Assembly: GCA_900544605.1 (NCBI GenBank)
Contig: UQVP01000002.1
Coordinates: forward strand, 13,709 to 77,708
Length of the DNA stretch: 64,000 nucleotides
Direction of reading: 5' to 3'
Source: an uncultured Mycoplasmatota bacterium
GTDB taxonomy: Bacteria; Bacillota_I; Bacilli_A; RF39; UBA660
Shown: piece after piece, positions 9,576 through 39,283 of the stretch
Position numbering within the stretch: position 1 is the stretch's first letter
How the letters are laid out: every line of letters begins with the position of its first letter
Notes under the pieces: generated by a model
Databases searched by the model: none
What the model saw: only the letters and a program-made list of their open reading frames with translations
Told to the model about the DNA's origin: nothing
Made by a program: the position numbers and the translations under genes

Positions 9576-9583
9576 GTGATAAC

Positions 9584-10756: not shown

Positions 10757-10768
10757 AGGAGTGTTATA

Positions 10769-11695
10769 ATGAAATATAGTATAATAATACCAGTATATAA
10801 TGTAGAAAACTATATTAAAAAGTGTTTAGAATCTATAAAAGGGCAAACATATAAAAATTTTGAAGTTATTATTGTAAATGATGGCTCAAAACAAAACGAA
10901 AAAGAAATAATTAAACCGTTTTTAAAAGATAAAAGATTTAAATACTATGAAAAAGAAAATGGGGGATTATCTGATGCCAGAAATTATGGTGTAGGTTATG
11001 CTGCTGGTGATTATATCATTTATGTAGATTCAGATGATTATATAGAAAAAGATCTATTAACTAAAATTAATAATTTAGTTGAAACAATAGATTATGATGT
11101 TGTTAGATATAACTTAAATGTTGTTTCAGAAGATGGTGAAATAATTTTTAAAAATGATGATATTGATTTAACTTATGACTCAATTAAAGGTATATTATTA
11201 AATAAATATGTTGAGCCAGCTTGGCTTTATGCTTACAAAAAAGATTTTTATTTAAAAAACAAATTTACCTTTCCTAAAGGAAAAATTCATGAAGATTTTT
11301 ATTTGACATTACTAATTTTAGATAAAGCTAAAAATATTGGTGTTATAAATTATAATGGATATAATTATGTCCAGAGAGGTACAGGAATTATGGGAAATAA
11401 AGCTTATGAAAAAGTAAAAATTCGTGTTGAAGACTTTATATCTCATAATAAATATCATCAAAAAAATATTAAAAATAAATATATATTAAGTTACTCTAAT
11501 AGATCTTTAGTTTATAAAATAAGTGAACTAAAGGGTAAAGATTTAGATAATAAAATAAATTATATAGAAAAAAGCAATATATTGTCTAACATTTATTCAT
11601 TAAGTTTTAAACAGTTTCTTATAAATACGTATATGAAATTATTCTTAAGAAAATTTGTTTATTCAAAAAATAATGAATTTTATAAAGGAGAATAA
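10769..11695 (+). CDS. Glycosyltransferase family 2
   Basis: YSIIIPVYNVENYIKKCLESIKGQTYKNFEVIIVNDGS ... YVDSDDY. Confidence 0.85.
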   Translation: MKYSIIIPVYNVENYIKKCLESIKGQTYKNFEVIIVNDGSKQNEKEIIKPFLKDKRFKYYEKENGGLSDARNYGVGYAAGDYIIYVDSDDYIEKDLLTKINNLVETIDYDVVRYNLNVVSEDGEIIFKNDDIDLTYDSIKGILLNKYVEPAWLYAYKKDFYLKNKFTFPKGKIHEDFYLTLLILDKAKNIGVINYNGYNYVQRGTGIMGNKAYEKVKIRVEDFISHNKYHQKNIKNKYILSYSNRSLVYKISELKGKDLDNKINYIEKSNILSNIYSLSFKQFLINTYMKLFLRKFVYSKNNEFYKGE

Positions 11696-11701
11696 AATAA
11701 T

Positions 11702-12655
11702 ATGGATATAAGTATAATAATACCAGCATATAATGCAGAACCTTATATAGATAAGTGTTTAAACACGATATTAAATCAAACTTTTAAAGGTAATTTTGAG
11801 ATTATTATAGTAAATGATGGTTCAAAGGATGATACATTAAAAATTTTAAATAAATATGCTAAAAAATATAAAAAAATTAAGATAATTGACCAAAAAAATG
11901 CTGGACAAGCTGTTGCACGTAATAATGCTTTAAAGGTTGCTTTAGGAAAGTATATAATGTTTGTTGATGTTGATGATTATATAGATGAAACAATGCTTGA
12001 TAAAATGTATAGTGTTGCAATTAAAGAAAATGCAGATATTGTATATTGTGATTATTATGAACATTATAAAGATGATGATAGGATTGTTCATAATTATATT
12101 ACTGAAGATGAAATAAAAAATGCTATTTTAGCGAATTATGCGCCTTGGGGTAAATTATATAATTTAGATTTTTTTAAAAAAAGTAAATTAGAATTTATGA
12201 AAGGTAAGCTGTTTGAAGACATTGCCATAGTTCCAGTGTTGGCAGCATTATCTAAAAAAAGTATTAGAGTACCAGAGGCACTTTATTATTATAATTGTTC
12301 AAATGTTTCTTCAATTCGTAAAAAAAGTTATAATAAAAAATTAGAAGATGTTTTTGATTCAATTGATATTACATATAAAAATTTTAAAGATAAAAAACTT
12401 TTAGAAAAGTATTATACTGAAATTGAATATATTTATTTAGATAGCTTTTTAAAAGGTGGGGTTTTTAGATTTTGTGATTTTAAGGAAGGAATTGAAAATG
12501 CTTCAATATTAAGAAAAAAGATTAAGAAATTATTTCCAAAAATTATAAATAATGTATATTATAAAAAATTACCATTAAATAGCAAAAAATATATTTTTAT
12601 TTCATATTATTTTCCTACTAAACTTATTTATTTAATGAAGAGAGCAAAAAAATGA
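11702..12655 (+). CDS. Glycosyltransferase family 2
   Basis: ISIIIPAYNAEPYIDKCLNTILNQTF...IIIVNDGSKD ... FVDVDDY. Confidence 0.85.
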   Translation: MDISIIIPAYNAEPYIDKCLNTILNQTFKGNFEIIIVNDGSKDDTLKILNKYAKKYKKIKIIDQKNAGQAVARNNALKVALGKYIMFVDVDDYIDETMLDKMYSVAIKENADIVYCDYYEHYKDDDRIVHNYITEDEIKNAILANYAPWGKLYNLDFFKKSKLEFMKGKLFEDIAIVPVLAALSKKSIRVPEALYYYNCSNVSSIRKKSYNKKLEDVFDSIDITYKNFKDKKLLEKYYTEIEYIYLDSFLKGGVFRFCDFKEGIENASILRKKIKKLFPKIINNVYYKKLPLNSKKYIFISYYFPTKLIYLMKRAKK

Positions 12656-13773
12656 AAAAAATATTGATAACAACCAAAACTTTAGCAATAGGTGGAGTGG
12701 AAACATCTTTAGTATTTCTAATAAATAAATTGATTAATGACTATGAAATAGATTTATTGGTTATGGATAAAGGTGAGCTAGAAGCAAAAATTGACAAGAG
12801 AGTTAATATTATTTTGTATAATAGTTTGTTTCCTAATATAAATTTAAAGACAAAACTATATAATATAAATAAAAATATCGCAGTTAAAAAGCTATTAAAA
12901 ATGTATAAAAATATGTTAAATAAAGAATATGATGTTTCTATAGCTTATTATGGCTTTGATAATTATACTGATTTAGTAGCTGCATCAGTAAAAAGTAAAA
13001 AAAAGATTATTTGGGTTCATAACGATTTTAAAAGTGCTATAGAAACTAAAAAATTTAGGATATTATATAAATTTATGTATAAATTAATGGGAAGAAAATT
13101 TAATTATTTTGATTCCTATGTTTGTGTTTCAAAGTATGCTAAACAAAATTTTGATGATTTTTTTAATATTGATTCAAATAAAAGTATTTGTATTCATAAT
13201 TATATATCTGAAAATTATGTTATAGATTTGTCCAAACAGTCTACTAGTGTAAAACTGAATAAAGGAAATTTTAATATTATCGCTATAGGTAGATTAGTAA
13301 AATCAAAAAACTTTGATAAAATTATAACTGTTGTTGCAGAGTTAAAAAAGAAATCGCTTCCAATTCATTTATATATACTTGGCGATGGCCCTGAATTTAA
13401 CAATTTAAATGTTCTGGTTTCTAATTATAAAGCTAGTACTTATATAAGTATGTTGGGAAATCAAATTAACCCTTATAATATATTAAAGCAAGCAGACTTA
13501 TTACTTTCAATGTCGGAATTTGAAAGCTTTGGAAATATATTGATTGAAGGGCTAATATTAAATATACCATATATATCAAATATAAATTCTGGGTCTAAAG
13601 AAATCTTTGAAAATTGTACACCTAAGGGTATGGGCGTTATATGCAAAAATAGTGAAGTGAAAGATAAACTAATAGAATTTTATAATAATAAAGATTTTAA
13701 ATATAATAAGTTTCAAATAAAAAAATATAATAATGAAATAATAGATAAGATTTATGAAATTATAAAAGGATAA
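12652..13773 (+). CDS. Glycosyltransferase family 4-like (GT-B)
   Basis: LAIGGVETSL near the N-terminus, GRLVKSKNFD, and a C-terminal SEFESFGNILIEG motif. Translationally coupled to the upstream gene. Confidence 0.7.
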   Translation: MKKILITTKTLAIGGVETSLVFLINKLINDYEIDLLVMDKGELEAKIDKRVNIILYNSLFPNINLKTKLYNINKNIAVKKLLKMYKNMLNKEYDVSIAYYGFDNYTDLVAASVKSKKKIIWVHNDFKSAIETKKFRILYKFMYKLMGRKFNYFDSYVCVSKYAKQNFDDFFNIDSNKSICIHNYISENYVIDLSKQSTSVKLNKGNFNIIAIGRLVKSKNFDKIITVVAELKKKSLPIHLYILGDGPEFNNLNVLVSNYKASTYISMLGNQINPYNILKQADLLLSMSEFESFGNILIEGLILNIPYISNINSGSKEIFENCTPKGMGVICKNSEVKDKLIEFYNNKDFKYNKFQIKKYNNEIIDKIYEIIKG

Positions 13774-13778
13774 GAAAA

Positions 13779-15188
13779 TTAATTCTTATCCTTTTTATTA
13801 AAGTTTTTACTTGCAAATAAAGAAGTAATAAAAATGGTGAAATATGCTACATCTTTCATATAGAAAATACTTTCTGTGTGACAAGATAATATAATAATTA
13901 CAAGAAGCATAATAGAAAATAAATTTTTGTTTTTTAATAAATAATATAAAATAATTGTAAAAAATATAAGCATTCCTAGAATTCCAATTTCTGCTCCTAG
14001 TTGATAATACATATTGTGGGGGTAAAGATATCTTGATGTAGTATCAAAGCTTTTATCTTTAATATAATCACTAGCATTTTGATTTTCATATATATAATTA
14101 TAAGAACCAATTCCAATTCCTAGAGTAGGATTAGATTTCATTATATTTTTTGCTACAGATTTAAAATATTTTCGACTGTTTAATGAATAATCTATATTTT
14201 CAATTAGTTGTATATCATTGCCTTGTTGATTATCGCTACTATTAGTTTGATTTGGATTTTGTTCAATACTATTGTTTCCGTTATTTGAATTATTGTCAAC
14301 TTTAATTATAAAAATGTTAAAAATAGGCTTAGTGATCTTTGATAAAATGTTGGTATGTGTTTTATTGTCTATTTTATAAACAACATCTTCAAAGTATTTA
14401 GCAGTAGCGCTATATAGATAATTTTGACCAGGAATTATAAATGAAAGTAAGATCATCAAGATTATTAATATTGATATATGTTTTCTCTTTTTTATAAAGA
14501 AATAAATTATCATAATAAAATAAACAATTAATATTATAATTTGTGATGTTCTGCAAAAAGTAAAGAAAAGGTTTAAATTTGCAAGACAGAAAGCTATAAT
14601 TACTAAAGCTTTATTTATCAAATTATTTTTTAATAGAAATAAACAATATAGAATGTTAATTAATAAATATTTATCATATATTGTTGCAATATAGAAAGTA
14701 GAGTTAATTCTTCCTCTTGCTCCAGGATATTTTTCTATACCATTTAAATTTATTCCTAATTTAAATATATATTGTAATACTCCAATAATACACACAAATA
14801 TTAAAAGGTATATAATGCTATAGTTAATTATTTTTTTTTGTTTTTGTGAAAATTCAATTTGGTTTAGTATATATAGAAAGTAAATCATTAAACTAAATTT
14901 TATAAAATTAGAAACATTGTATATTTTATTGCAAATGGAAAAATTCCAAGATAGAAATAATATTACAATAAATATTAACGATAATACGCTAATAAGATTT
15001 AACTTATATTTATTTTGTCCTTTACTATCATAGACTAAACAACCAAATAATGATATTGGTAAAATATAATTTATAATTGTTGCTAGTTTAGAAATATGTA
15101 AAAATGTATTTAATTGTTCATTACCTAACAAAGGTAATAAAATAATATTTAATATTAATAGTATAAAAGTTTTCTTAGTGATTTTCAT
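13779..15188 (-). CDS. O-antigen ligase/polymerase-like (Wzy-type) polytopic membrane protein
   Basis: 469 aa with more than 10 TM helices, a large loop carrying an N/Q-rich insert, and a PHNMYYQLGAEIGILG motif like the Wzy_C family. It is the only minus-strand gene in the locus. Confidence 0.65.
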   Translation of the reverse strand: MKITKKTFILLILNIILLPLLGNEQLNTFLHISKLATIINYILPISLFGCLVYDSKGQNKYKLNLISVLSLIFIVILFLSWNFSICNKIYNVSNFIKFSLMIYFLYILNQIEFSQKQKKIINYSIIYLLIFVCIIGVLQYIFKLGINLNGIEKYPGARGRINSTFYIATIYDKYLLINILYCLFLLKNNLINKALVIIAFCLANLNLFFTFCRTSQIIILIVYFIMIIYFFIKKRKHISILIILMILLSFIIPGQNYLYSATAKYFEDVVYKIDNKTHTNILSKITKPIFNIFIIKVDNNSNNGNNSIEQNPNQTNSSDNQQGNDIQLIENIDYSLNSRKYFKSVAKNIMKSNPTLGIGIGSYNYIYENQNASDYIKDKSFDTTSRYLYPHNMYYQLGAEIGILGMLIFFTIILYYLLKNKNLFSIMLLVIIILSCHTESIFYMKDVAYFTIFITSLFASKNFNKKDKN

Positions 15189-15368
15189 AACGCACCTCTT
15201 TTAAAGTATAACATAACTGATTATTAAAAACAAATATTAGTTTTTAGTTTCTGTATATTTTTGTAAAATGCAGAAAAATCAAAACTTTATTCTGTAAAGT
15301 AGGAAAATAATATTTTTTATATTATTGTAAATAATATATAACGTGTTATAATTAAATAGGTGGTATGA

Positions 15369-17291
15369 ATGAAAAAAAATAAAAAAATGAAATGGAATAT
15401 TAGAAAAGTAGTTGGGGCAGCAACATTACTATTTAATTTAGTGTTGACTATTCTTTTATTAGTGTTAAATGTTCTTCCAATGAAATATTTAATCCCTATC
15501 ATTGTTATATTTATTGGGATAGATGCTTTAATAGTATTATTTGGTTTTATTAAAAAACTAAAGAAAAAAGGAAATATCATTTATATAGTTTTAAATGTAT
15601 TGTGGTGTTTAATTTGTATATTTGGTTCCTTTTATTTATTCAAAACTATTAGTTTCATGGGAGGATTAGGGTCTTCTAATGAAAAAACAGAGAATTATTC
15701 TGTCATTGTTTTAAAGGATAGTTCTTATGAAAAAGTTGAAGATATAAAGAACAAAGAAGTTGGTATTGTTTCTTATCAAAGTGAAGGAAAAGATAAAGCA
15801 AAAGAACATTTAAGTTCTAAAGTAAGTGTTAATTACAAAGATTTTGAAACACCACAAGACTTAGAAAATGCTTTATTAGATAAAGATATCGATGTCATTA
15901 TGGTTGAAGATTCTTATGTTGAAATGTTCAAAGAGATAAATGAAGATTTCGAATCTTTAACAAAAGTTATATATACATTTTCTGTTCAGATGAAGGCGGA
16001 AGATATATCAAAAGATGTTAGTGTAACAAAAGAACCATTCAGTATCTATATAAGTGGTATTGATACTTATGGTAAAATTAGTTCTGTATCACGTAGTGAT
16101 GTTAATATGGTGGCAACAGTTAATCCTAACACTAACCAAGTATTATTGATATCAATTCCTCGTGATTATTATGTTAAATTGCACGGCACAACTGGTTATA
16201 ATGATAAATTAACTCATGCCGGTATATATGGTGTTGATATGTCAGTTAAAACAATTGAAGATCTTCTTGGTATTAATATAAATTACTACGTTAAGGTAAA
16301 TTTTAGTAGTGTTATTAAAATAGTAGATGTTTTAGGTGGTGTTGATGTATATTCTGAATATACTTTCAAATCTTATTCGGGATATAATTTTACAAAAGGA
16401 TATAATCATATGAATGGTGAACAAGCTTTAGATTTTGCTCGTACACGTAAAGCATTTGCGTCAGGAGATAGACAAAGAGGTAAAAATCAACAAGCTGTTA
16501 TAGAAGCATTAATTAGAAAATGTTCTAGTGCTTCAGTTATAACTAAATATAGTTCATTATTAGATAGTTTAAGCGGAAGTTTTCAAACTAATATGAGTAC
16601 TAAAGAAATTACTTCTTTAGCTAAATATCAGTTAGATAAAATGCCAGAATGGACTGTAAAATCAATTTCATTAGATGGTGGAGATTCATATAATTATACA
16701 TATAGTTATGGACGATCTAAATCATATGTAATGACACCTTATGAATCAAGCATTAAAGAAGCACAACAAGCATTATCAGAAATATTAGGTGGTGCTGTTC
16801 AAGAAAGTTCTTATAGTAAAGTTTCAAATGTTAAAACACCAAGTACAAATAAAAATTCTAATAGTAATTTGTCTACAAATAATAGTAGAGATAATCAGGT
16901 ATCAACAGAACCAACAATAAAACTAAGTAGTGATGATATTACTATAGAAGTAGGAGAAATAACTACTTTAACAGCAACTGTGACAAATAGTAAGGAAAGC
17001 GTTAGTTGGTCATCTAGTGATACTAGTGTTGCTAGTGTAAGTAATGGAAAAATAACACCAATAAGAGCAGGAACAGTTACTATTACTGCAAAAGTTGGAA
17101 ATAAATCTGCTACTTGTATTGTTCGTATTAATAAGAAACAAGAAGAGAAAAATCCTCTTCAGCCAATATTACCAAGTGAAGAAGAAAAAATTACAGGAGA
17201 AAATGGTAGTTCAAGCAATAATGAAAAAAATACAGAAAGTGAAACTACAAATTCTTCAAATGAAAAAAATAATGAAGATACTCAAAGTTAA
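15369..17291 (+). CDS. LytR-CpsA-Psr (LCP) family phosphotransferase with C-terminal Big_2-like domain
   Basis: N-terminal TM helices; LCP core (SRSDVNMVATVNP...ISIPRDYYV...LTHAG, ALDFARTRKAF..GDRQRGKNQQ); Ig-like ITIEVGEITTLTATV...VTITAKVGNKSATCIVRI. Confidence 0.85.
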   Translation: MKKNKKMKWNIRKVVGAATLLFNLVLTILLLVLNVLPMKYLIPIIVIFIGIDALIVLFGFIKKLKKKGNIIYIVLNVLWCLICIFGSFYLFKTISFMGGLGSSNEKTENYSVIVLKDSSYEKVEDIKNKEVGIVSYQSEGKDKAKEHLSSKVSVNYKDFETPQDLENALLDKDIDVIMVEDSYVEMFKEINEDFESLTKVIYTFSVQMKAEDISKDVSVTKEPFSIYISGIDTYGKISSVSRSDVNMVATVNPNTNQVLLISIPRDYYVKLHGTTGYNDKLTHAGIYGVDMSVKTIEDLLGININYYVKVNFSSVIKIVDVLGGVDVYSEYTFKSYSGYNFTKGYNHMNGEQALDFARTRKAFASGDRQRGKNQQAVIEALIRKCSSASVITKYSSLLDSLSGSFQTNMSTKEITSLAKYQLDKMPEWTVKSISLDGGDSYNYTYSYGRSKSYVMTPYESSIKEAQQALSEILGGAVQESSYSKVSNVKTPSTNKNSNSNLSTNNSRDNQVSTEPTIKLSSDDITIEVGEITTLTATVTNSKESVSWSSSDTSVASVSNGKITPIRAGTVTITAKVGNKSATCIVRINKKQEEKNPLQPILPSEEEKITGENGSSSNNEKNTESETTNSSNEKNNEDTQS

Positions 17292-17415
17292 GTTGAGTAT
17301 TTTTTTTAACATTAACTATAATTTTTATACTTTTTTTGATGTGTAAAATTGAATTATATTGATCTTAATTCTTGTTTCTTATGTGCTTATATGTTATTAT
17401 ATTATTGGTGATATA

Positions 17416-17886
17416 ATGACAAAGGTTCTTTTTATTTCAAGTACTGGTGGACATTTAGACGAAATGTTACAGTTAAAAGAAATGTTTAAAAAATATGATT
17501 TTCATATTATAACAGAAAAAACAAAATCAAATATGGGATTAAAAACTAAATATCCACACAGGGTTAATTATTTAGTTTATGGAACAAAAGATCATAAATT
17601 AACTTATCCTTTTAAATTATTATATAATTGTTTTAAATCTTTATTTCTATATATTAAAATTAGACCAAAATTTATTATAACAACAGGAGCTCATACTGCA
17701 GGTCCTATGTGTTGTATAGGAAAATTATTTGGTTCAAAAATTATTTTTATTGAATCTTTTGCCAACATACACACTAAAACTATAACAGGAAGACTTGTAT
17801 ATAAATTTGCTGATTTATTTATTGTGCAATGGGAAAGTATGTTAGAATTATATCCTAATGCTGTTTATGGAGGTTGGATTTTTTAA
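17416..17886 (+). CDS. Alg14-like / PssD-type glycosyltransferase membrane-anchor subunit
   Basis: VLFISSTGGHLDEMLQL...ITTGAHTAGPMC...IFIESFA pattern. ATG 17416 was chosen because a GGTGA ribosome-binding site lies upstream. Confidence 0.7.
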   Translation: MTKVLFISSTGGHLDEMLQLKEMFKKYDFHIITEKTKSNMGLKTKYPHRVNYLVYGTKDHKLTYPFKLLYNCFKSLFLYIKIRPKFIITTGAHTAGPMCCIGKLFGSKIIFIESFANIHTKTITGRLVYKFADLFIVQWESMLELYPNAVYGGWIF

Positions 17887-18368
17887 TGATATTGGTAACA
17901 CTAGGTACTCAGGACAAGCCATTTACGAGATTGCTTGATGCTGTACAAGAACAAATTAATAAAGGAAATATAAAAGATAGAGTGGTAGTTCAAGCGGGAT
18001 GCACAACTTATAATAGCAGTGATATGGAAATATTTGATTTAATTCCTAAAGATGATTTTGAAAAATTAATAAGTGAATGTGATTTATTAATCACACATGG
18101 TGGCGTTTCTTCAATTTTAACAGGATTAAAAAATAATAAGAAAGTAATTGCAGCAGCGAGATTAAAACAATATGGTGAACATACCAATGATCATCAATTA
18201 CAAATTATTGAAAATTTTACTAAAAGTGGATATATATTAAGTGTAGATGATTTTGCAGATTTAGGTAAAATTATAAAAAAAGCAAAAAATTTTAAACCAA
18301 AAAAATATAAGAGTAATACTAAAAATATGGTTAAATTAATAGAAAATTTTATAGATAGCTATAATTAA
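17886..18368 (+). CDS. Alg13-like / PssE-type glycosyltransferase catalytic subunit
   Basis: MILVTLGTQDKPFTRLL...ITHGGVSSILTGL...NDHQLQI pattern. The start overlaps the upstream stop (TAATG). Confidence 0.7.
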   Translation: MILVTLGTQDKPFTRLLDAVQEQINKGNIKDRVVVQAGCTTYNSSDMEIFDLIPKDDFEKLISECDLLITHGGVSSILTGLKNNKKVIAAARLKQYGEHTNDHQLQIIENFTKSGYILSVDDFADLGKIIKKAKNFKPKKYKSNTKNMVKLIENFIDSYN

Positions 18369-18400
18369 ATTTTTCTATTATTATTGAAAGAGGTGTGGGT

Positions 18401-20953
18401 ATGAGTAAAAACTTCAAAAAAATCTTAATTCTTTTTTTAACTTTATTTTTATTCTATTTTGCAATAGGATTAGTTTTTTCTTATTTTTTAAATACTCTTG
18501 ATTATTATAATATTTTTTTTGGATCTGATAGTAATCGTGTCTTTATTGATTTAACAGTAAGAGTAGCTAATCATTATAGAACTAGTGTTCATCCGTTGTT
18601 TGTTATTTTATTTCAACCATTAGTTAAAATACTTAACTTTGGTTTAAATAATAGTATTTTATCATCTCTAGCACTTCAAAGTTTTTTCAATGCTGGTTCT
18701 CTAACTATAATTTATTTGTTTTTAGAAAAGATAAATTTAAATAATAAAGTAAAAAAATCTCTATTTTTAATAATGACTATTTCCTTTGGGCAGATAGTTT
18801 ACTCTGCAACCTTGGAAACTTACCCATTTGCGCAATTCTTTTTAATTTTATTGTTTTATTTTGCATATTGTAAAAAAGATAAAACTTTGTTGCTTAGAGA
18901 TTATATTATCTTTACTCTATTAGGTGTAGGTTGCTTATCTGTAACTTTAACAAATTATTTTGTATATTTATTAGTAATGTTTTATATAATATTTTTTAAT
19001 GATAAATCCGGTAAAAAAATAATTAATAAATTAAGCATATTATTTTTGTGTATTTTGGCTTCTTTTGGAATAACTGTTGTTTTATCTGAGTTACAAGCTG
19101 TTTTATTTCCAGATTCTAGTCTATTCTTCTTAGATAATTTAAAAGCTATATTTATGCATTCATCTGAAGAACTTAACTATGTAGAAAAGTTTTCTTTGCT
19201 TTCTGTAGTAAGACAGATAAAAACAGTTTTCTCGTATAGTTTTATATCTCCAAAAGTTGGTTTGATATTTGATGAAACTAATATGGTACTAAATTTTGAT
19301 TCAATGTATTTTATAAATAAATTAATTGTTATTTTTACTATTTTATTAATAGGAATATTGATAGTTAATTTTGTAAAAAAAGAAAAAAGAAATTTAATGA
19401 AACATAGTTTTTTTCTTCTTTTAATAGTTAGTTTTGCGTTTAATTTTTGTTTACATCTTTTTTATGGTAATAATGAAGGTTTCCTTTATATTTTACATTA
19501 TCAATTTCTTTTAATTTTAATTACTGCTTACTTAATACAATTCGTTGATAAAAAGTATCAAAAATTTAGTGAAATTGTTTTGCTTACCTTTTTAATGCTA
19601 GAACTTATTTTAAATTCAATATCGGTATTTAAAATGTTTGATTTATTAAAAAATGTATATGAGATTAGAATGAATATTGATTTAGTATTACTTATAATTT
19701 ATATAATTTGTAGTTATATTATAATTTGTTTAGCAGGTATCCCTAAAAAGTGGAAAATAGCTTCGTGTATAATTTTGACTGTGATTTTGGCTTTTACATT
19801 TAATAAGATAGATTATACTTTAAAAACAAAAAATGAAATGTTGAATTATATAGATGCCACATATGAAAAACAATATGATTTATATTCAAATCAACTTGAA
19901 AAACTAAAAAACGAGTATAATGTAAATGTTGCTTACAATAATAGTGATAAATTATACTTGTTTGGCATGGGAAACAGAAAAAAATTACTTTACACCAATG
20001 GAATATTATATGATTTAAAAAATAAAACAATTTTATATAACTTTTATCCTATAGGTGAAATGATAATTCCAAATATGTATACAGTATCTTTAAAAGATAA
20101 AAATGGAAATAAATATGTTATATATGAAAATGAAGATGGTATCTATTTAAAAACAAATGATGAAGATAAGGTAAGTTTGGATGATAGTGAGAAAATTAAT
20201 TTACCAGATTTTAATAATTTTAAATATTCTGAAATTTTGAAAGTACTGCATCAAGAAATTTTATTTAATATAGATAATAATGAATTAAAACCTAATATAC
20301 TAGTGTATGATAATGGTTGGTATCGCGATGCGATGATGGGTGCGATGGTACTTGAAAAAACCTTTAATTTGAATTTAATTAAACCTTGGGTTGATAGAAT
20401 TAATAATATATATGATGAACAAAACGGAACAAAAGAAGCTGACAATTTAGGAGAACTTTTATATTTGATATCAGTGACAAATAGTAGTAATCCAATTATA
20501 AATGAAATTTTTTCTGAAGTAGAAAGAATAAAAAATGAAAATAATACAAACTATATAATAGGATCCACAGATAATCAAATTTTAGCATACTATCCAACAG
20601 CAGTTTTAAAGTTTGCTTTAGAAAGAGGAAATTATGATGCTTTTGTTGAGCTACCTAAAGAATATGATAATTATACTAGTTTAGTGTGGTTTTATGATAA
20701 AGATAAAAATATCAATGCTGATATTGATGATATTCAATTTCCTTATTTAGGATGGGCTAGATATCATACGAACAAAAAGAGCAACTTATATATTTGCGAT
20801 AGTTTATATCCACTTAGTTATGAAAAAAATGCTGCTTTTGCTGATTATAAAAAATTAGATGAAAATATTAATTTTTATAAAGAAAACAGTATCTCACCAA
20901 CTCACGTATGGGATGCTGCCGAGAAATTTTTGCTTTTATACGAGGTACAATAA
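18401..20953 (+). CDS. Large polytopic membrane protein with ~380-aa extracytoplasmic C-terminal domain (GT-C-like candidate)
   Basis: About 14 hydrophobic helices in the first ~470 aa, then a soluble domain. ATG 18401 follows a GAAAGAGGTG ribosome-binding site. No specific family was recognised. Confidence 0.45.
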   Translation: MSKNFKKILILFLTLFLFYFAIGLVFSYFLNTLDYYNIFFGSDSNRVFIDLTVRVANHYRTSVHPLFVILFQPLVKILNFGLNNSILSSLALQSFFNAGSLTIIYLFLEKINLNNKVKKSLFLIMTISFGQIVYSATLETYPFAQFFLILLFYFAYCKKDKTLLLRDYIIFTLLGVGCLSVTLTNYFVYLLVMFYIIFFNDKSGKKIINKLSILFLCILASFGITVVLSELQAVLFPDSSLFFLDNLKAIFMHSSEELNYVEKFSLLSVVRQIKTVFSYSFISPKVGLIFDETNMVLNFDSMYFINKLIVIFTILLIGILIVNFVKKEKRNLMKHSFFLLLIVSFAFNFCLHLFYGNNEGFLYILHYQFLLILITAYLIQFVDKKYQKFSEIVLLTFLMLELILNSISVFKMFDLLKNVYEIRMNIDLVLLIIYIICSYIIICLAGIPKKWKIASCIILTVILAFTFNKIDYTLKTKNEMLNYIDATYEKQYDLYSNQLEKLKNEYNVNVAYNNSDKLYLFGMGNRKKLLYTNGILYDLKNKTILYNFYPIGEMIIPNMYTVSLKDKNGNKYVIYENEDGIYLKTNDEDKVSLDDSEKINLPDFNNFKYSEILKVLHQEILFNIDNNELKPNILVYDNGWYRDAMMGAMVLEKTFNLNLIKPWVDRINNIYDEQNGTKEADNLGELLYLISVTNSSNPIINEIFSEVERIKNENNTNYIIGSTDNQILAYYPTAVLKFALERGNYDAFVELPKEYDNYTSLVWFYDKDKNINADIDDIQFPYLGWARYHTNKKSNLYICDSLYPLSYEKNAAFADYKKLDENINFYKENSISPTHVWDAAEKFLLLYEVQ

Positions 20954-22846: not shown

Positions 22847-23524
22847 TTAATCTATATCTATAGAAACATCATTAGCTTGTTTTTTTAACCATTTTTTTAT
22901 ACATTTTCTTAGTTCTAAGTTATTTTCAAGAAAATTATTTAATGTGTTATTATCTGATATTTTAACTAAACAATCATCTTTTTCTTTTGGTAATATATTA
23001 AGTACAATAAACTCTGAGTCTTTTATTTGTTCTAAAGTATAAGTCTTCATAATCTGAGGTAGTTTTAAAAATTCACTTTTTGTTTTTATTTCTTTTGGTA
23101 GCCAATTTGAATCAAGAAATTTATTAATTTCATGATAAAAATCAAAATATGATTTTAGGGAGTAATATAAAGGTGCATTATAATTTATTATAGCTTCATT
23201 AGCATTTATTTTATTTTTGAAACTCATTATGCCAAAAGCATATGATTCTGCTTTTTGATCTTTGTTTCTAAAAAAATTGAATGTGAATTTTGCTGAATTT
23301 AAAAATTCTAAATATTCTATTACAATATTTATGTTTTTATCAATAATTTTGCTTCCTGCATTATATTTATCAAATAGTGAGATTGTAACTATTAATGTTG
23401 CAAATGTACAAATAAAAGAAGAAATAGAAATTAAATTGTCTAATTTCTCAGTGTTTAGATGATTATAAGAAACTATTAGTAATAAGCATAATATAAGTAA
23501 TAAGACAAAAATTGTTTTTTTCAT
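22847..23524 (-). CDS. Hypothetical membrane-anchored protein
   Basis: 225 aa with two N-terminal hydrophobic helices. Ribosome-binding site GGAAGTGAG. No family recognised. Confidence 0.5.
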   Translation of the reverse strand: MKKTIFVLLLILCLLLIVSYNHLNTEKLDNLISISSFICTFATLIVTISLFDKYNAGSKIIDKNINIVIEYLEFLNSAKFTFNFFRNKDQKAESYAFGIMSFKNKINANEAIINYNAPLYYSLKSYFDFYHEINKFLDSNWLPKEIKTKSEFLKLPQIMKTYTLEQIKDSEFIVLNILPKEKDDCLVKISDNNTLNNFLENNLELRKCIKKWLKKQANDVSIDID

Positions 23525-23643
23525 ATTCTCACTTCCGTTTAAATTATAACAAATAAAAAATGTATTGTCAGTTTTTTATAAAATTTTTGTAAAAAACAAT
23601 AAATATTCAAAATTATATTCATATAATATAGTGACACATCAAT

Positions 23644-23672
23644 TTGACAAAAGTGTAAAAAAATGTTAATAT
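23644..23672 (+). promoter_or_regulatory. Sigma-A-type promoter for the large non-coding RNA
   Basis: TTGACA (23644-23649), a 17-nt spacer ending in TGT, then TAATAT (23667-23672). Confidence 0.5.
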
Positions 23673-23679
23673 TATGGTG

Positions 23680-24305
23680 TGTTGTGAAAAAATGGCACAT
23701 TATTCTAGTCGATGGACTTACTATGAAGGTGGGGCTAAAAATCCACTAAAGAGCACATCTGTGAAACTTCTGGTGTTTGCTTCTTACGCCCAGTCTGGGG
23801 TGGATGCTGGAAGGTAGAATATTGGGCGCTCGTAATGGCATACGATTCCGACCCAGTATTCATGGAGACCTATTTTTGTGTAATACCTATACACTATTAG
23901 TTGATGGATATTATACGAACTAGGCTTGAACCTACTATGTGGGGAAACTTACGAGTAGTGTAGCTTGTCTTGCGTGATGGTGGGGAATAATTGATCTGAA
24001 TAAATAATTTATAGCTAAAATTATTTATTATTGCAATTTGAAACTACTGTTGCAAAAAAGAATTAATAGTAACGAAGTTGTTGAGGAAATCTCCTAGAAT
24101 GTATTATTATAATGGGATTGCAGTGCGTACTAAGTGGCAATCAAGTCGTATATTCGGTGACGATATACCTCTTCTTTAAAGGGAAACCGCTATCCTGGTA
24201 ACGGGAAGTACGAAATGGGGAAATCCAACTTGACCTATGACGCAAAGTTAACTATTGTAGTAGCCATTTTTAAATTTTTAAGGGATAAGATATATCCTTT
24301 TTTAT
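23680..24305 (+). ncRNA. ole: Large (~620 nt) structured non-coding RNA, best hypothesis OLE RNA
   Basis: No ORF of 60 aa or more in any frame. G+C is strongly enriched relative to the flanks. Many local helices are present. A promoter lies at the 5' edge and a weak terminator at the 3' edge. A 4-TM OapA-like gene follows directly. Confidence 0.6.
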
Positions 24306-24325
24306 TTTATAGTTAGAGGAGAATT

Positions 24326-24877
24326 ATGAAAAAGAAAATAAACAAAAAGAAAAGTAATACAGATTATAATTGGGTTATAAAAATAACAGTAGCAGCATTT
24401 ACAATATCACTTGTATTTTCCTTTATTTCTGAAAAAATATTACCAAATGCTAATTTGATAATGGGAATTATTTTAGTTTTAGTATTTATTATAATTGGTG
24501 TTATATTTGATATGATAGGTGTTGCTGTTACGGCATCTGACGAAAAACAATTTCATTCAATGAGTTCTAGAAAAGTTAAAGGGGCTAAAACAGCGGTATT
24601 ATTAAAAAAGAATGCTGAAAAAATGTCATCATTTTGTAATGATGTTATTGGTGATATATGTGGAATTATATCTGGTTCTGCAGGTGTTGTCATTGCATCT
24701 AAATTAGCATCCATATTAAATGTTAATACATTTTTAGTATCTCTTATAGTTACAGCTTTAATAGCAGCTGCAACAATAGGTGGTAAAGCTTTAGGAAAAG
24801 GTGTAGCTATATCAAAAAGTAATGATATATTATTTATGTTTTCTAAAGTCATTGCATTTTTAAAAAAAGAAAAGTAG
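24326..24877 (+). CDS. oapA: Small four-TM membrane protein, OapA-like (OLE-associated protein A candidate)
   Basis: 183 aa (~20 kDa) with four hydrophobic helices and a basic N-terminus and central loop. It lies immediately 3' of the large RNA. Ribosome-binding site GAGGAG. Confidence 0.5.
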   Translation: MKKKINKKKSNTDYNWVIKITVAAFTISLVFSFISEKILPNANLIMGIILVLVFIIIGVIFDMIGVAVTASDEKQFHSMSSRKVKGAKTAVLLKKNAEKMSSFCNDVIGDICGIISGSAGVVIASKLASILNVNTFLVSLIVTALIAAATIGGKALGKGVAISKSNDILFMFSKVIAFLKKEK

Positions 24878-24907
24878 TTGACAAGTAATTTATAAAAATT
24901 ATATAAT
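24878..24907 (+). promoter_or_regulatory. Promoter of rubrerythrin gene with a possible Fur/PerR-type box in the spacer
   Basis: TTGACA 24878-24883, a 17-18 nt spacer, then (A)TATAAT 24901-24907. The spacer TTATAAAAATTATAT resembles the PerR box TTATAATNATTATAA. Confidence 0.4.
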
Positions 24908-26800: not shown

Positions 26801-27637
26801 ATGATAATAAATGGAAAAGAGATAAGTGAAAAAATAAGAGAAGAATTAAAAGCTGAAGTAAAAACGTATATGATTAAACCTTGTTTAGCAGTTATTCAAA
26901 TAGGAAATGATCCAGCTAGCGATGTTTATATTAAAGCAAAAGAAAAAGCATGTGGTGAGGTTGGAATCTATTTTAAGCATATTAAATTTGAGGAAACAGC
27001 TCGTGAAATTGAAGTTATAAATAAAATCCTTGAATTAAATAATGATGAGTATGTAAATGGTATATTACTTCAACTTCCACTTCCAGAAAAATTCAATACT
27101 GAAAAACTAATTAATTATATAGCTCGTAATAAAGATGTGGATGGTTTAACTGATATTAATGTTGGTAAATTAGTTAATAAAAAGAAATGTTTAGTTTCTT
27201 GTACCCCACAAGGTATTATGGAGCTTTTAAAACAATATGAAATTGAAGTAAGTGGTAAGAATGTTGTTATTGTTGGTAGAAGTAATTTAGTAGGTAAACC
27301 ACTAATTAGTTTATTTTTGAACAGTGATGCAACGGTAACTGTTTGTCATTCAAAAACTAATAATTTGAAAGATTTTACATCTAAAGCTGATATTTTAGTA
27401 GTAGCTGTTGGTCATAAACATTTAATTACTGAAGATATGGTAAAAGAAGGAGCTACAGTAATTGATGTTGGAATTAACCGTGAAGATGGTAAATTATATG
27501 GTGATGTTGATTTTGATAATGTAAAAGATAAAGTAGCGTATATTACTCCAGTTCCTGGAGGCGTAGGCCCTATGACAGTTGCGATGTTACTTAAAAATGT
27601 AAATGATACATATAAAAGAATGATTGCTAGTAAATAA
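26801..27637 (+). CDS. folD: Bifunctional methylenetetrahydrofolate dehydrogenase/cyclohydrolase
   Basis: LAVIQIGNDPASDVYIKAK, GILLQLPLP, VVIVGRSNLVGKP, TPVPGGVGPMTVAML. Confidence 0.95.
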   Translation: MIINGKEISEKIREELKAEVKTYMIKPCLAVIQIGNDPASDVYIKAKEKACGEVGIYFKHIKFEETAREIEVINKILELNNDEYVNGILLQLPLPEKFNTEKLINYIARNKDVDGLTDINVGKLVNKKKCLVSCTPQGIMELLKQYEIEVSGKNVVIVGRSNLVGKPLISLFLNSDATVTVCHSKTNNLKDFTSKADILVVAVGHKHLITEDMVKEGATVIDVGINREDGKLYGDVDFDNVKDKVAYITPVPGGVGPMTVAMLLKNVNDTYKRMIASK

Positions 27638-28304: not shown

Positions 28305-28381
28305 AGCGATGTAGCTCAGCTGGCTAGAGCGTTCGGTTCATACCCGAAAGGTCGTGGGTTCGATCCCCTCCATCGCTACCA
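28305..28381 (+). tRNA. tRNA with CAT anticodon (elongator Met or lysidine-modified Ile2), CCA encoded
   Basis: The cloverleaf folds by hand: acceptor AGCGATG/CATCGCT, D-arm GCTC/GAGC, anticodon stem TTCGG/CCGAA with loop TTCATAC, and T-arm GTGGG/CCCTC (one U-U mismatch) with a TTCGATC loop. Confidence 0.9.
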
Positions 28382-28425: not shown

Positions 28426-28695
28426 CATTAAAAGCTATCCTAAAAAAGATGATTTTGAAAGATAAATTTTACCCAATTTAGCAAAATGTATTAAAAACAA
28501 TATGAAAATGTGTTATAATATTTGACAAGTAAAGAGATAAAAATGTGTATATTTATTAGAAGAAAAAAATAGATAATTAGAACAAGCAGAAATAAAGAAA
28601 TTAATAAAAACACAAAATAAATAATTCAATAAGGGCTAGTAATGACTTATTATAATTATAAGGATGCTATGCTCTTTTTAGTAGGAGGAATAAAA

Positions 28696-30195
28696 ATGAA
28701 ATCATATACTAATACGAAATTAAGAAAGAAATTACAAAATAAAGGTATTACCCTTGATGAAAAAAAGAAATCGTATTTTGATAAATATAGTTATTATCAA
28801 GTTATTAATGCCTATAAAAATATTTTTTCTACTAGTATTGAAAATATTGATGATATTGAGAATAATATAAAAAATTCAATTGATATTGATAGATATAAAA
28901 AAAATTTTTCAATTTCTAATGACATCAGTAATAATGCTTTATATAGAGAAATATTAATTAGTATATGTCAAAAATATGGTATTAATTTAAAAAATACTGA
29001 TTCAAATGAAGAACTTAAAGAAAAAATAAAAGGAATAAAATTTTATAATCATTTATATTCTAATAAAGTTATTTATAGTGATTTTATTAGAATTTATAAA
29101 TTTGAACATGAGCTTAGGAATGTATTATTAAAATATACACTAATAATAGAAGAAAGCTTAAAAAACGTTTTGGTCACATATTTAAATAGTGTTGAAGCAA
29201 AAGACAATTTTTTAACAGATATAAATCAATATGATACAACTCCTAAAAATATTACAAATTCTATTAATTCGATACAGAAAATTTTTGGTAAGCAAACTAA
29301 TAAATATTCTAATCCAATTAAAAGAAAGAATGACCAGGAACTTTCAGTACCATACTGGATTATAATAAATGAACTAACATTAGGAGAAACTATAAAGTTA
29401 ATAATTAATTTAGATAGAACTCATATGCAAAGCATTTTGGAAAATTGCGTTAATTGTTTTACTAATGTTAAATTAAATAAAGATGAAATAATAACAAATG
29501 AAGATAAAGAAAAATATTGGAATAAATTAAACGTTATGCGTGAAATATTAAATGTTGTTGGTTTATTAAGAAATAGTTTAGCTCATAATCAACCTATATA
29601 TAATTTTAACGTAAAAGAATACTATTCATCAAAATCAAGTAATGTACATTATATTTTACCAAAAGCACATAATCAACAAGAACAATATGTATTAACAACA
29701 AATTATATGTCTTACTTAGCAGAATTTTTTGGTAGTGATAGATACAATAGTTTTTCTGGTAATACAAATATTAATTTATCATGGGTTATATATATAATCT
29801 ATAAAATTATTTCACATTTAGATAAAAACACTAATATGTATATAGAGTTAGTTTATGTATATCAGAAATATAATATTATTTTAAGACCAAGTAAGGTTGC
29901 AACTAATAAGATAGAATTATATGAAACAATATTATCTAAATTAAATGATTATAGTACTATCGATTTTAATATAAATAATATTAAAGAAAAATATGATAAT
30001 GATAAAAGAATTAAATTAAATTTAATATCACTAAATAAGCAAATCAGGGAGATGCAAAATGAGATGAAATTCTTATTAAACGAGAATAATAAAAATAATG
30101 AATGTATGAAGTATACACACTTCTTATTTGATAGGGCATACACTAAGTATACTGGTATAGATAAGAAGTATTTTGACAAATTAATGAATAATTAA
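28696..30195 (+). CDS. Abi_2 (AbiD/AbiF-like) abortive-infection family protein with long C-terminal extension
   Basis: ATG 28696 follows a GGAGGA ribosome-binding site. The N-terminal KLRKKLQNKGITLDEKKKSYFDKYSYYQVINAYKN matches the Abi_2 signature. At 499 aa it is longer than the typical ~300-350 aa. Confidence 0.7.
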   Translation: MKSYTNTKLRKKLQNKGITLDEKKKSYFDKYSYYQVINAYKNIFSTSIENIDDIENNIKNSIDIDRYKKNFSISNDISNNALYREILISICQKYGINLKNTDSNEELKEKIKGIKFYNHLYSNKVIYSDFIRIYKFEHELRNVLLKYTLIIEESLKNVLVTYLNSVEAKDNFLTDINQYDTTPKNITNSINSIQKIFGKQTNKYSNPIKRKNDQELSVPYWIIINELTLGETIKLIINLDRTHMQSILENCVNCFTNVKLNKDEIITNEDKEKYWNKLNVMREILNVVGLLRNSLAHNQPIYNFNVKEYYSSKSSNVHYILPKAHNQQEQYVLTTNYMSYLAEFFGSDRYNSFSGNTNINLSWVIYIIYKIISHLDKNTNMYIELVYVYQKYNIILRPSKVATNKIELYETILSKLNDYSTIDFNINNIKEKYDNDKRIKLNLISLNKQIREMQNEMKFLLNENNKNNECMKYTHFLFDRAYTKYTGIDKKYFDKLMNN

Positions 30196-38810: not shown

Positions 38811-38874
38811 TAAATTTAATAAAAAGAGATAGGTAATTCTCTTTTTTTGTGATAGAATGATTATAGGTGGTTTT

Positions 38875-39282: not shown

Positions 39283-39283
39283 T

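What the first reader, a model, noticed from the sequence alone, without database searches (positions are those of the whole stretch)
23644..24877. Unannotated ~620-nt structured RNA followed by a 4-TM protein: OLE RNA / OapA-like locus (or a new large ornate RNA)
Seen in the sequence:
- About 800 bp between 23524 and 24326 has no ORF of 60 aa or more in any frame.
- Its core (about 23680-24290) is strongly G+C enriched for this genome. For example, 30 of 60 bases in 23761-23820 are G/C by hand count, whereas ordinary spacers here are nearly pure A/T.
- A good promoter sits at the 5' edge: TTGACA 23644-49, a 17-nt spacer with TGn, then TAATAT 23667-72.
- A weak hairpin plus T-run (about 24285-24310) sits at the 3' edge.
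- Many helices can be drawn: 23818-26/23852-60 (9 bp, enclosing 23830-34/23841-45), 23999-24010/24018-29 (12 bp), 24031-36/24050-55, 24116-21/24137-42, and 24148-53/24163-68.
- The next gene (183 aa) has four hydrophobic helices.

Established knowledge: OLE RNAs are about 610 nt and occur in anaerobic or spore-forming Firmicutes. They are essentially always followed by oapA, a ~21 kDa four-TM protein that tethers the RNA to the membrane. They usually lie among nusB, folD, xseA, xseB, ispA and dxs. Here folD is 2 kb downstream and nusB-xseA-xseB are 14 kb downstream.

Inference: this is an OLE/OapA ribonucleoprotein locus. If the covariance model does not hit, it is an undescribed large RNA with a dedicated membrane partner.
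Basis: partly seen in the sequence, partly recalled or inferred. Interest (0 to 1): 0.85.

Follow-up and report, generated by a model that had tools for sequence, protein, structure and literature searches.

The report
Ordinary OLE RNA with oapA gene

Summary
Window 23676-24283 (+) matches Rfam RF01071 (OLE RNA) end to end at 400.3 bits, against a threshold of 50 (E = 4e-114). No other large-RNA family hits. In this copy, 141 of the 151 consensus pairs present are canonical. In an alignment with 68 homologues, 120 of 151 pairs show compensatory changes.

The next gene, 24326-24877, encodes OapA. It is 40% identical (E = 1e-35) to a published reference OapA. It has the diagnostic DxxxD motif (D106-D110) and four hydrophobic helices. 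It gives only a sub-threshold CNNM hit, and its best structural matches are the CorB entries 7M1T and 7M1U.

Among 80 related oapA loci, 73 carry OLE upstream on the same strand. All 14 of these tested with Rfam score 374-442 bits. A near-consensus promoter sits at the same place in most of them.

The RNA is the full-length type. P7, P8 and P9 are present, and the OapB-binding site (GUGA tetraloop plus a bulged U) is retained. The loop of its long arm is AGCU, a published self-complementary variant.

The element is already known, so interest is low. Expression was not tested.

The parts
23644..23672 (+). Sigma-A-type promoter of ole: -35 TTGACA (23644-49), 17-nt spacer ending in TGn (extended -10), -10 TAATAT (23667-72). 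The predicted transcription start is about 23677-23681.
   Evidence: Found by the promoter scan. The same architecture lies at the same position upstream of OLE in related loci; 57 of 67 score at least 10 of 12 hexamer matches, mostly with TGn. Function is inferred and was not measured.
23676..24283 (+). OLE RNA gene (ole), 608 nt, full-length type.
   Evidence: Rfam RF01071: 400.3 bits, E = 4e-114, model positions 1-616 of 616. 141 of 151 consensus pairs are canonical. 208 of 249 strongly conserved consensus positions are identical. Covariation across 69 sequences.
23728..23747 (+). Hairpin with the conserved A-rich loop GCUAAAAAUC. I equate it with P4 of the published model, a dimer contact.
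   Evidence: 6 of 6 pairs are canonical, and 5 of 6 covary (helix 1). The helix name is inferred from the text of PMC12265935.
23767..23813 (+). 20-bp hairpin with an invariant GCCCA loop at 23788-92 (inferred P5/P5.1, a kissing-loop partner).
   Evidence: The loop is GCCCA in 69 of 69 sequences.
23817..23861 (+). Three-segment hairpin with loop AAUGGCAU (inferred P6/P6.1, a kissing-loop partner).
   Evidence: The loop is AUGGCA in 59 of 69 sequences.
23869..23924 (+). Inferred P7, 17 bp. Its apical part reads CCUAUAC, then a short hairpin, then UGAUGG.
   Evidence: helix 5. The apical motif is shared with 20 relatives.
23932..23958 (+). Inferred P8 hairpin.
   Evidence: helix 6: 10 of 12 pairs covary.
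23967..24062 (+). Inferred P9 long arm, about 33 bp in four segments. Its self-complementary apical loop is UAGCUA (24012-24017; core AGCU 24013-16).
   Evidence: helices 8-12. Relatives carry the palindromes GGCC, AGCU or GUAC at this loop. The GGCC/GAUC/AGCU switching is published as evidence for a loop-loop dimer contact (PMC12286853).
23717..23724 (+). 5' strand of a long-range helix that pairs with 24066-24073. It closes the P4-P9 domain (inferred P3). This helix is not in the Rfam model.
   Evidence: 8 consecutive pairs, 81-97% canonical, each with 3-6 pair types.
24066..24073 (+). 3' strand of the inferred P3 helix.
23693..23708 (+). 5' strands of two further long-range helices: UGGC 23693-96 pairs with GCCA 24263-66, and UAUUCUAG 23701-08 pairs with CUAGAAUG 24094-24101.
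   Evidence: Both are 75-100% canonical, with some covariation.
24105..24262 (+). 3' multi-branch domain (P12-P15 region). The outer helix is 24105-15/24252-62. P12.2-like helix: 24141-46/24228-33. P13: 24148-24168, with bulged U24153 and a GUGA tetraloop at 24157-60 (the OapB-binding site). P14/P14.1: 24169-24217, with a GUAA tetraloop at 24198-24201.
   Evidence: helices 14-19. The P13 loop is GNRA in 66 of 69 sequences and the P14.1 loop in 68 of 69. The binding-site definition comes from PMC7936274.
24280..24308 (+). Weak hairpin (24280-87/24293-24300) followed by a U-run. This is a candidate leaky intrinsic terminator or 3'-end signal between ole and oapA.
   Evidence: RNAfold gives -6.3 kcal/mol. 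A comparable hairpin plus U-run is seen in 25 of 63 related spacers; the rest have only a U-run after the terminal helix. Function is inferred.
24315..24321 (+). Ribosome-binding site AGAGGAG of oapA.
   Evidence: Read directly from the sequence. It ends 4 nt before the ATG.
24326..24877 (+). oapA, encoding the OLE-associated membrane protein A (183 aa).
   Evidence: 40% identity, E = 1e-35, to the reference OapA. DxxxD motif D106-D110 is invariant in 31 homologues. Four hydrophobic segments. Sub-threshold CNNM hit. Best structural matches are CorB 7M1T and 7M1U.

Best explanation
Window 23644-24877 is a compact ole-oapA unit of a low-G+C, spore-forming gut or rumen Bacillota bacterium.

What the sequence shows: a strong sigma-A-type promoter at 23644-72 sits directly before a 608-nt OLE RNA gene (23676-24283). 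A weak hairpin and U-run follow. No separate promoter lies before oapA.

What I infer from that layout: the promoter drives OLE transcription. The hairpin and U-run probably let some transcripts read through into oapA (24326-24877).

What I infer from homologues in Halalkalibacterium halodurans and Clostridium (PMC12265935, PMC12286853, PMC11332333): the RNA folds into the conserved two-domain OLE architecture. It dimerises through its conserved loops, including the self-complementary AGCU loop of the long P9 arm. OapA dimers bind it and hold it at the cell membrane. There the particle helps the cell tolerate stresses such as short-chain alcohols, cold, excess Mg2+ and poor carbon sources.

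The biochemical activity of OLE is unknown in every species. Neither expression nor function was measured for this copy.
For: RNA identity and structure:
- Full-length RF01071 hit at 400.3 bits, and no other large-RNA family in the window.
- 141 of 151 consensus pairs are canonical. 83.5% of the strongly conserved positions are retained.
- On 69 sequences, 87.6% of pair cells are canonical against 38-45% for slid controls. 120 of 151 pairs have double changes. 0 of 500 shuffles reach the observed values.
- Long-range helices of the updated model are supported.
- Dimer-contact loops and the OapB site (GUGA tetraloop plus bulge) are present.

Protein identity:
- OapA homology, E = 1e-35.
- DxxxD motif and four transmembrane segments.
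- CorB-like fold.

Context:
- 73 of 80 related oapA loci have OLE upstream on the same strand.
- 14 of 14 loci tested are called OLE by Rfam.
- The promoter position is conserved.
- Known ole neighbours are present: folD, nusB, xseA, xseB. Sporulation genes are also present.
Against: - There are no transcript data, so the RNA's ends, its abundance and readthrough into oapA are inferred.
- The small hairpin at model positions 424-435 is missing. It is missing in all low-G+C relatives too, so this is a lineage trait and not decay.
- OapB, OapC and bS21 genes are not in the 64-kb window. They usually lie elsewhere in the genome.
- Helix names P3-P9 were assigned from text descriptions, because the figures could not be read.
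Confidence: 0.96

Rival explanations
1. The structured region is only a long cis-acting 5' leader, of riboswitch or attenuator type, that controls oapA. It is not a stable RNA that acts on its own.
For: ole and oapA share a strand. No separate oapA promoter was found, and only a weak hairpin and U-run separate them.
Against: - The sequence is a full-length member of a family shown elsewhere to be an abundant, stable RNA that binds OapA protein (PMC12265935).
- In 11 related loci, 0.4-4.2 kb of other genes lie between ole and oapA.
- The conserved intermolecular dimer loops have no role in a leader.
Confidence: 0.02
2. It is a decaying, non-functional OLE remnant.
For: One small consensus hairpin (model 424-435) is absent, and 41 of 249 strongly conserved positions differ.
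Against: - Most of the differences are G-to-A or C-to-U changes. 141 of 151 consensus pairs remain canonical.
- The score of 400 bits lies in the middle of the 374-442 range of relatives.
- The missing hairpin is absent from all 63 low-G+C relatives.
- oapA is intact, with all invariant residues.
- The promoter is intact.
Confidence: 0.02
3. It is a different or new class of large structured RNA that merely resembles OLE.
For: None was found.
Against: The match covers the whole OLE model at E = 4e-114. No other Rfam family matches. The family-specific loops and the partner gene are present.
Confidence: 0.005

Closest known systems
OLE RNA (Rfam RF01071), e.g. Halalkalibacterium halodurans OLE and the 577-nt Clostridium acetobutylicum OLE solved by cryo-EM (PMC12286853)
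   Same: - Length of about 600 nt and the same order of helices.
- The conserved loops are present: the A-rich loop, GCCCA, AAUGGCAU and the palindromic loop of the long arm.
- P13 carries a GUGA tetraloop and a bulged U. P14.1 carries a GNRA loop.
- oapA lies immediately downstream.
- folD, nusB, xseA and xseB are in the neighbourhood.
   Different: - The helices are much more A+U-rich. The distal P9 stem, for example, is entirely A-U.
- The small hairpin at model positions 424-435 is absent.
- The long-arm loop is AGCU instead of GGCC; this is a published variant.
- The gene has its own near-consensus promoter. In H. halodurans, OLE is reported to be part of a long polycistronic transcript (PMC12265935).
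- ispA and dxs are not nearby.
OapA (OLE-associated protein A)
   Same: - 40% identity over 171 aa to the reference OapA.
- The FCNDVIGDI motif (DxxxD) is shared.
- Four transmembrane helices.
- A basic loop, SRKVKGAKTAVLLKKNAEK.
- Weak CNNM similarity and a CorB-like fold.
   Different: It is a little shorter (183 aa against 194 aa). It has a lysine-rich N-terminus and lacks the reference protein's C-terminal tail.
Variant OLE RNAs of reduced gut lineages: variant 1 (TANB77) and variant 2 (RF39) (PMC11332333)
   Same: The host is an uncultured low-G+C gut or rumen Bacillota. Many of the closest oapA loci are MAGs labelled Bacilli, Mollicutes or Tenericutes.
   Different: P7, P8 and P9 are all present at full length (56, 27 and 96 nt), and the OapB site is retained. 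This copy is therefore the full-length type, not either variant.
CNNM/CorB/CorC/MpfA Mg2+ transporters (Pfam PF01595)
   Same: The transmembrane fold is similar. The top PDB matches are 7M1T and 7M1U (probability 1.0, TM-score 0.49-0.58) and 7CFG (0.53).
   Different: - The Pfam score is below threshold (18.3 against 28.4 bits).
- There is no CBS or CorC_HlyC domain.
- It has the DxxxD motif.
- It has no proline in the CNNM-aligned region.
- It has four transmembrane helices instead of three.

Membership tests
OLE RNA (RF01071) | Matches the curated covariance model above its gathering score, over the full length | tested here: met
   400.3 bits against 50; model positions 1-616 of 616; E = 4e-114.
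OLE RNA (RF01071) | About 600 nt, with many highly conserved nucleotides | tested here: met
   608 nt. 208 of 249 strongly conserved consensus positions are identical. 115 columns are invariant across 69 sequences.
OLE RNA (RF01071) | Ornate secondary structure supported by covariation | tested here: met
   141 of 151 pairs are canonical in this copy. 120 of 151 pairs have double changes. 87.6% of cells are paired against 38-45% for slid controls. 0 of 500 shuffles reach the observed values.
OLE RNA (RF01071) | oapA immediately downstream on the same strand | tested here: met
   oapA starts 43 nt after the end of the model. The same arrangement holds in most of the 73 related loci.
OLE RNA (RF01071) | Host is a Bacillota anaerobe, extremophile or spore-former | tested here: met
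   The SpoVAC/AEB, SpoIVB and SpoIIM genes are in the window. The nearest loci are Bacillota MAGs from gut and rumen. The exact species was not identified.
OLE RNA (RF01071) | Conserved dimer-contact loops (A-rich P4 loop, P5.1 and P6.1 loops, palindromic P9 loop) | tested here: met
   GCUAAAAAUC, GCCCA, AAUGGCAU and UAGCUA are all present. Dimer formation itself was not tested.
OLE RNA (RF01071) | Stable, abundant transcript localised to the membrane | not testable with these tools
   This needs RNA-seq or a Northern blot, plus localisation experiments.
Full-length OLE (as opposed to variant 1 or 2) | P7 and P8 present; P7-P9 not shortened; OapB site (GNRA tetraloop plus a single-nucleotide bulge in P13) present | tested here: met
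   P7 is 56 nt, P8 27 nt and P9 96 nt, each equal to or above the clade median. P13 has a GUGA tetraloop and bulged U24153. The helix names are my mapping from text in PMC12265935 and PMC7936274.
OapA | Sequence homology to an authenticated OapA | tested here: met
   40% identity over 171 aa, E = 1e-35, to the OapA sequence in Supplementary Table 4 of PMC12286853.
OapA | DxxxD motif, which CNNM domains lack | tested here: met
   D106-V-I-G-D110 is invariant in 31 homologues and shared with the reference OapA.
OapA | Four predicted transmembrane helices | tested here: met
   Hydrophobic segments lie at about 17-35, 44-68, 106-128 and 134-152. The AlphaFold2 model has long helices 14-41, 44-70, 97-131 and 135-163, with mean pLDDT 80.7.
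OapA | Only weak homology to the CNNM/DUF21 domain, CorB-like fold, and no conserved CNNM proline | tested here: met
   PF01595 scores 18.3 bits, below its 28.4 cut-off. The top Foldseek hits are 7M1T and 7M1U. The only proline is P40, outside the CNNM-aligned residues 50-180.
OapA | Conserved cluster of basic residues on the loop between transmembrane helices 2 and 3 | tested here: met
   Residues 81-99, SRKVKGAKTAVLLKKNAEK. K95 and K99 are invariant, and R82 and K94 nearly so. The loop's orientation was not tested.
OapA | Binds OLE RNA (two protein copies per RNA) and tethers it to the membrane | not testable with these tools
   This needs a biochemical assay.

The most novel reading that the evidence does not exclude
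The low-G+C gut and rumen lineage to which this copy belongs may carry a distinguishable OLE subtype. Its features would be:
- its own conserved, near-consensus, extended -10 promoter;
- loss of the small hairpin at model positions 424-435;
- in about a third of members, this one included, a conserved apical motif in P7 (CCUAUAC, a short hairpin, then UGAYGG) that could be an extra protein- or RNA-docking site;
- in relatives, a further self-complementary long-arm loop (GUAC), and oapA genes separated from ole by cell-envelope genes.

None of this changes what the element is.
Probability: 0.15. Interest if true: 0.3.

Novelty: already known. Interest (0 to 1): 0.15.

Why it matters
OLE is one of the largest bacterial non-coding RNAs whose biochemical function is still unknown, so every well-defined copy is useful comparative material. 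This copy adds nothing categorically new. It is a standard full-length OLE with its standard partner gene, found by the standard model.

Its practical value is annotation. The 0.8-kb stretch that looks empty should be labelled ole, and the 183-aa hypothetical protein should be labelled OapA. Every named relative of that protein returned by the homologue search is called a hypothetical protein.

The very A+U-rich helices of this lineage, together with the 68 aligned relatives, give many compensatory changes. Those could help refine the family alignment.

Tried and rejected
- NCBIfam scan of the 183-aa protein and of the upstream 225-aa protein: no family.
- Profile search of the OapA alignment against PDB sequences: no hit at E up to 1. 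The similarity to CorB appears only at the fold level.
- tblastn of reference OapC and bS21 (RpsU) against the window: no hit. OapB was not searched for directly, because I had no reference sequence. No Pfam-annotated ORF in the window looks like a KOW protein. Several small ORFs have no Pfam hit and were not examined further.
- The terminator scan found no + strand terminator after OLE. The weak hairpin was seen only with direct folding.
- Six related oapA loci (L005, L006, L022, L057, L068, L070) have no OLE within ±5 kb. This holds with a clade profile and with Rfam at E up to 0.01. In two of the six (L005 and L070), a polysaccharide deacetylase gene lies upstream of oapA, the same kind of gene that separates ole from oapA in L015. 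This hints that ole lies further away, not that it has been lost.
- Species identification: the exact OapA sequence occurs on contigs from run SRR1761721, and the closest genome locus is only 74% identical.
- I considered and rejected variant 1 and variant 2 OLE, a cis-regulatory leader, a pseudogene and a new RNA class (see the rival explanations).

Full report
**Observation**

- The 0.8-kb stretch 23525-24325 has no ORF of 60 aa or more. The longest are 53, 48, 47 and 42 aa.
- Its core is 38.0% G+C. The window as a whole is 25.0%, the upstream spacer 16.6%, and other intergenic stretches 19-28%. The hand count of 30 G/C in 23761-23820 is exact.
- The promoter TTGACA(23644-49)-17 nt-TGn-TAATAT(23667-72) was found by the scan.
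- A weak hairpin (24280-87/24293-24300, -6.3 kcal/mol) followed by a U-run is present.
- The RNA folds more stably than shuffled sequence: -170.4 kcal/mol, z = -3.6.

**Identity of the RNA**

A scan of the whole window against all 4227 Rfam families gave two hits. One is OLE (RF01071) at 23676-24283 on the + strand: 400.3 bits against a gathering score of 50, E = 4e-114, covering model positions 1-616 of 616. The other is a tRNA. No ROOL, GOLLD, raiA, RNase P or tmRNA model matched.

I projected the model's consensus structure onto the window.
- 151 of 159 pairs are present, and 141 of those are canonical.
- The only missing element is a 4-bp hairpin at model positions 424-435.
- There is a 12-nt insertion in one apical loop.
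- 208 of the 249 strongly conserved consensus positions are identical.

Two do not (24031-36/24050-55 and 24116-21/24137-42); those bases pair elsewhere in the consensus.

**Comparative test**

I used an alignment of 31 homologues of the downstream protein to scan one genome per species. This returned 80 loci, mostly gut and rumen MAGs labelled Bacilli, Mollicutes, Tenericutes or Candidatus Scybalousia, plus a few Oscillospiraceae.
- 73 of the 80 carry an OLE match on the same strand upstream of the protein gene.
- Rfam independently called a full-length OLE in all 14 loci tested, at 374-442 bits. The window's 400 bits is therefore typical.

I then aligned 69 sequences and tested the Rfam-derived structure on them. 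That structure was not derived from these sequences.
- 87.6% of pair cells are canonical, against 38-45% when the partners are slid by 1-3 columns.
- 120 of 151 pairs show changes on both sides.
- 0 of 500 shuffles reach any of the five observed measures.

**Features of the updated published model**

The recent literature describes domain 1 (P3-P9) as closed by a long-range P3 helix. It reports dimer contacts through the A-rich P4 loop, the P5.1 and P6.1 loops, and a symmetrical loop on the long P9 arm. It places the OapB site at a GNRA tetraloop plus a one-nucleotide bulge in P13 (PMC12265935, PMC12286853, PMC7936274). I could read only the text of these papers, not the figures, so the helix names below are my own mapping.

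- A scan of the alignment found three long-range helices that Rfam leaves unpaired. The first, 23717-24 with 24066-73, has 8 bp with 3-6 pair types each and is P3-like. The second pairs 23701-08 with 24094-24101. The third pairs 23693-96 with 24263-66.
- The loops GCUAAAAAUC, GCCCA (invariant in 69 of 69) and AAUGGCAU are present.
- The long-arm loop is UAGCUA (24012-17). Relatives carry GGCC, AGCU or GUAC at this position, all self-complementary. Switching among GGCC, GAUC and AGCU is already published as evidence for an intermolecular kissing contact (PMC12286853).
- P13 (24148-68) has a GUGA tetraloop and bulged U24153. P14.1 has a GUAA loop.
- P7, P8 and P9 are 56, 27 and 96 nt, at or above the clade medians.

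This copy is therefore the full-length type. It is not the shortened variant 1 or variant 2 described for the TANB77 and RF39 gut lineages (PMC11332333).

**Identity of the protein**

- Pfam gives only a sub-threshold CNNM/DUF21 hit for the 183-aa product of 24326-24877: 18.3 bits against a cut-off of 28.4. NCBIfam gives nothing. This is the published behaviour of OapA, which is weakly related to CNNM domains (PMC11332333).
- Against the OapA sequence listed in Supplementary Table 4 of PMC12286853, it is 40% identical over 171 aa, E = 1e-35. The motif FCNDVIGDI is shared.
- The DxxxD motif (D106-D110), described as distinctive for OapA, is invariant in 31 homologues.
- There are four hydrophobic segments, a basic loop at residues 81-99, and no proline in the CNNM-aligned region.
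- An AlphaFold2 model (mean pLDDT 80.7) finds the archaeal CNNM protein CorB (7M1T, 7M1U) as its top three PDB matches, with probability 1.0 and TM-score up to 0.58. 7M1U is the entry reported as the best structural match of H. halodurans OapA (PMC11332333).

**Organisation and likely expression (inferred)**

- A near-consensus promoter with an extended -10 lies at the same position before OLE in most relatives; 57 of 67 score at least 10 of 12.
- No separate promoter precedes oapA. It has a good ribosome-binding site (AGAGGAG, 24315-21).
- A hairpin plus U-run in the spacer occurs in 25 of 63 relatives. The others have only a U-run after the terminal helix.
- A perfect consensus promoter (24878-24907) begins right after the oapA stop codon and serves the rubrerythrin gene.

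The simplest reading is a two-gene unit. OLE would be made in excess, and a fraction of transcripts would continue into oapA. This has not been measured.

**Context**

- Downstream lie rubrerythrin, glyA, folD (26801-27637) and tRNA-Met. Further on lie nusB (38857-39282), xseA (39242-40570) and xseB (40560-40784).
- The order ole-oapA-rbr-glyA-folD is shared with the closest locus, L001, and with L018 and L035; L022 has the same oapA-rbr-glyA-folD order but no detectable OLE.
- The window also encodes SpoVAC/AEB, SpoIVB and SpoIIM. This fits the reported correlation between OLE and sporulation genes (PMC11332333).
- OapC and bS21 are not encoded in the window. ispA and dxs are not present either.

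**Mechanism**

By homology, the RNA is expected to fold into the two-domain OLE architecture, dimerise, and be bound by OapA dimers at the membrane. It would then contribute to tolerance of alcohol, cold, Mg2+ and carbon-source stresses, as shown in H. halodurans (PMC12265935, PMC10898510). The proposal that the P3 helix spans the bilayer is a published model, not an established fact. The biochemical activity of OLE is unknown in every organism.

**Verdict**

The finding is real and correctly interpreted, but it is a routine member of a curated, widely surveyed family. Novelty: already known. Interest: low. The minor lineage-specific details are listed as side observations: the lost small hairpin, the P7 apical motif, GUAC loops in relatives, and ole-oapA pairs separated by other genes.

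Noticed in passing
window 23886-23909; also 20 related loci (e.g. L025, L004, L015, L027): The apical part of the inferred P7 stem carries a recurring motif: CCUAUAC, then a 3-4 bp hairpin whose pairs covary, then UGAYGG. It occurs in 21 of 69 aligned OLE RNAs. The Rfam consensus does not mark it as conserved. It could be a lineage-specific docking site.
   Followed up: partly
related loci L038, L014, L037, L019, L016, L011, L026, L065, L008, L032, L044, L048, L064, L036 (alignment A2, columns about 454-460): In 14 relatives the long-arm (L9.3) loop carries the palindrome GUAC (UGUACA), alongside GGCC and AGCU in the others. The text of PMC12286853 names only GGCC, GAUC and AGCU. A further self-complementary variant adds support for the loop-loop dimer contact.
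   Followed up: partly
window 24102-24105; alignment A2, columns 553-561: The small hairpin at Rfam model positions 424-435 is absent from the window and from all 63 low-G+C relatives. It is present only in the five higher-G+C relatives (OLE G+C 0.49-0.60): L069, L071, L073, L050 and L077.
   Followed up: yes
loci L010, L015, L017, L051, L059, L009, L041, L031, L049, L027, L001; and L005, L006, L022, L057, L068, L070: In 11 relatives, 0.4-4.2 kb separates ole from oapA. Where checked, the inserted genes encode cell-envelope functions: sulfatase, polysaccharide deacetylase, GT2 glycosyltransferase, EamA. Six oapA loci have no OLE within ±5 kb, by either a clade profile or Rfam. I could not determine whether those genomes have ole elsewhere.
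   Followed up: partly
window 28305-28381 and 28642-30195: A tRNA-Met (CAT) gene is followed by an Abi_2 (abortive-infection-like) gene, a 115-aa ORF with no Pfam hit and an HD-domain gene. This may be a small defence or mobile island next to a tRNA.
   Followed up: no
window 103-453, 48922-49908, 52447-53076: The sporulation genes SpoVAC/SpoVAEB, SpoIVB peptidase and SpoIIM show that this 25% G+C organism is a likely spore-former. That fits the reported link between OLE and sporulation genes.
   Followed up: yes
window 61579-61816 and 61955-62190: Two direct repeats about 375 nt apart, 70-79% identical, lie in an 0.8-kb stretch with no ORF of 70 aa or more. The stretch is upstream of the minus-strand gene 62209-63810 and has no Rfam match.
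   Followed up: no
window 24878-24907: A perfect consensus promoter (TTGACA, 18 nt, TATAAT) starts on the base after the oapA stop codon and precedes the rubrerythrin gene. It marks a sharp boundary of the ole-oapA unit.
   Followed up: partly
window 3808-5535 and 7129-20953: A dockerin-domain protein lies at 3808-5535. A long cell-wall polysaccharide cluster follows at 7129-20953: flippase, several GT1, GT2 and GT4 glycosyltransferases, Wzy-type ligase, LytR-CpsA-Psr, Alg14/Alg13-like pair. Together they fill the 20 kb upstream of the ole locus.
   Followed up: no
window 22847-23524 (-): A 225-aa protein with an N-terminal hydrophobic segment is transcribed divergently from ole. It has no Pfam or NCBIfam match. 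tblastn found it next to OLE in none of the 80 related genome loci; it does recur beside oapA on the metagenome contig that carries the identical OapA.
   Followed up: partly
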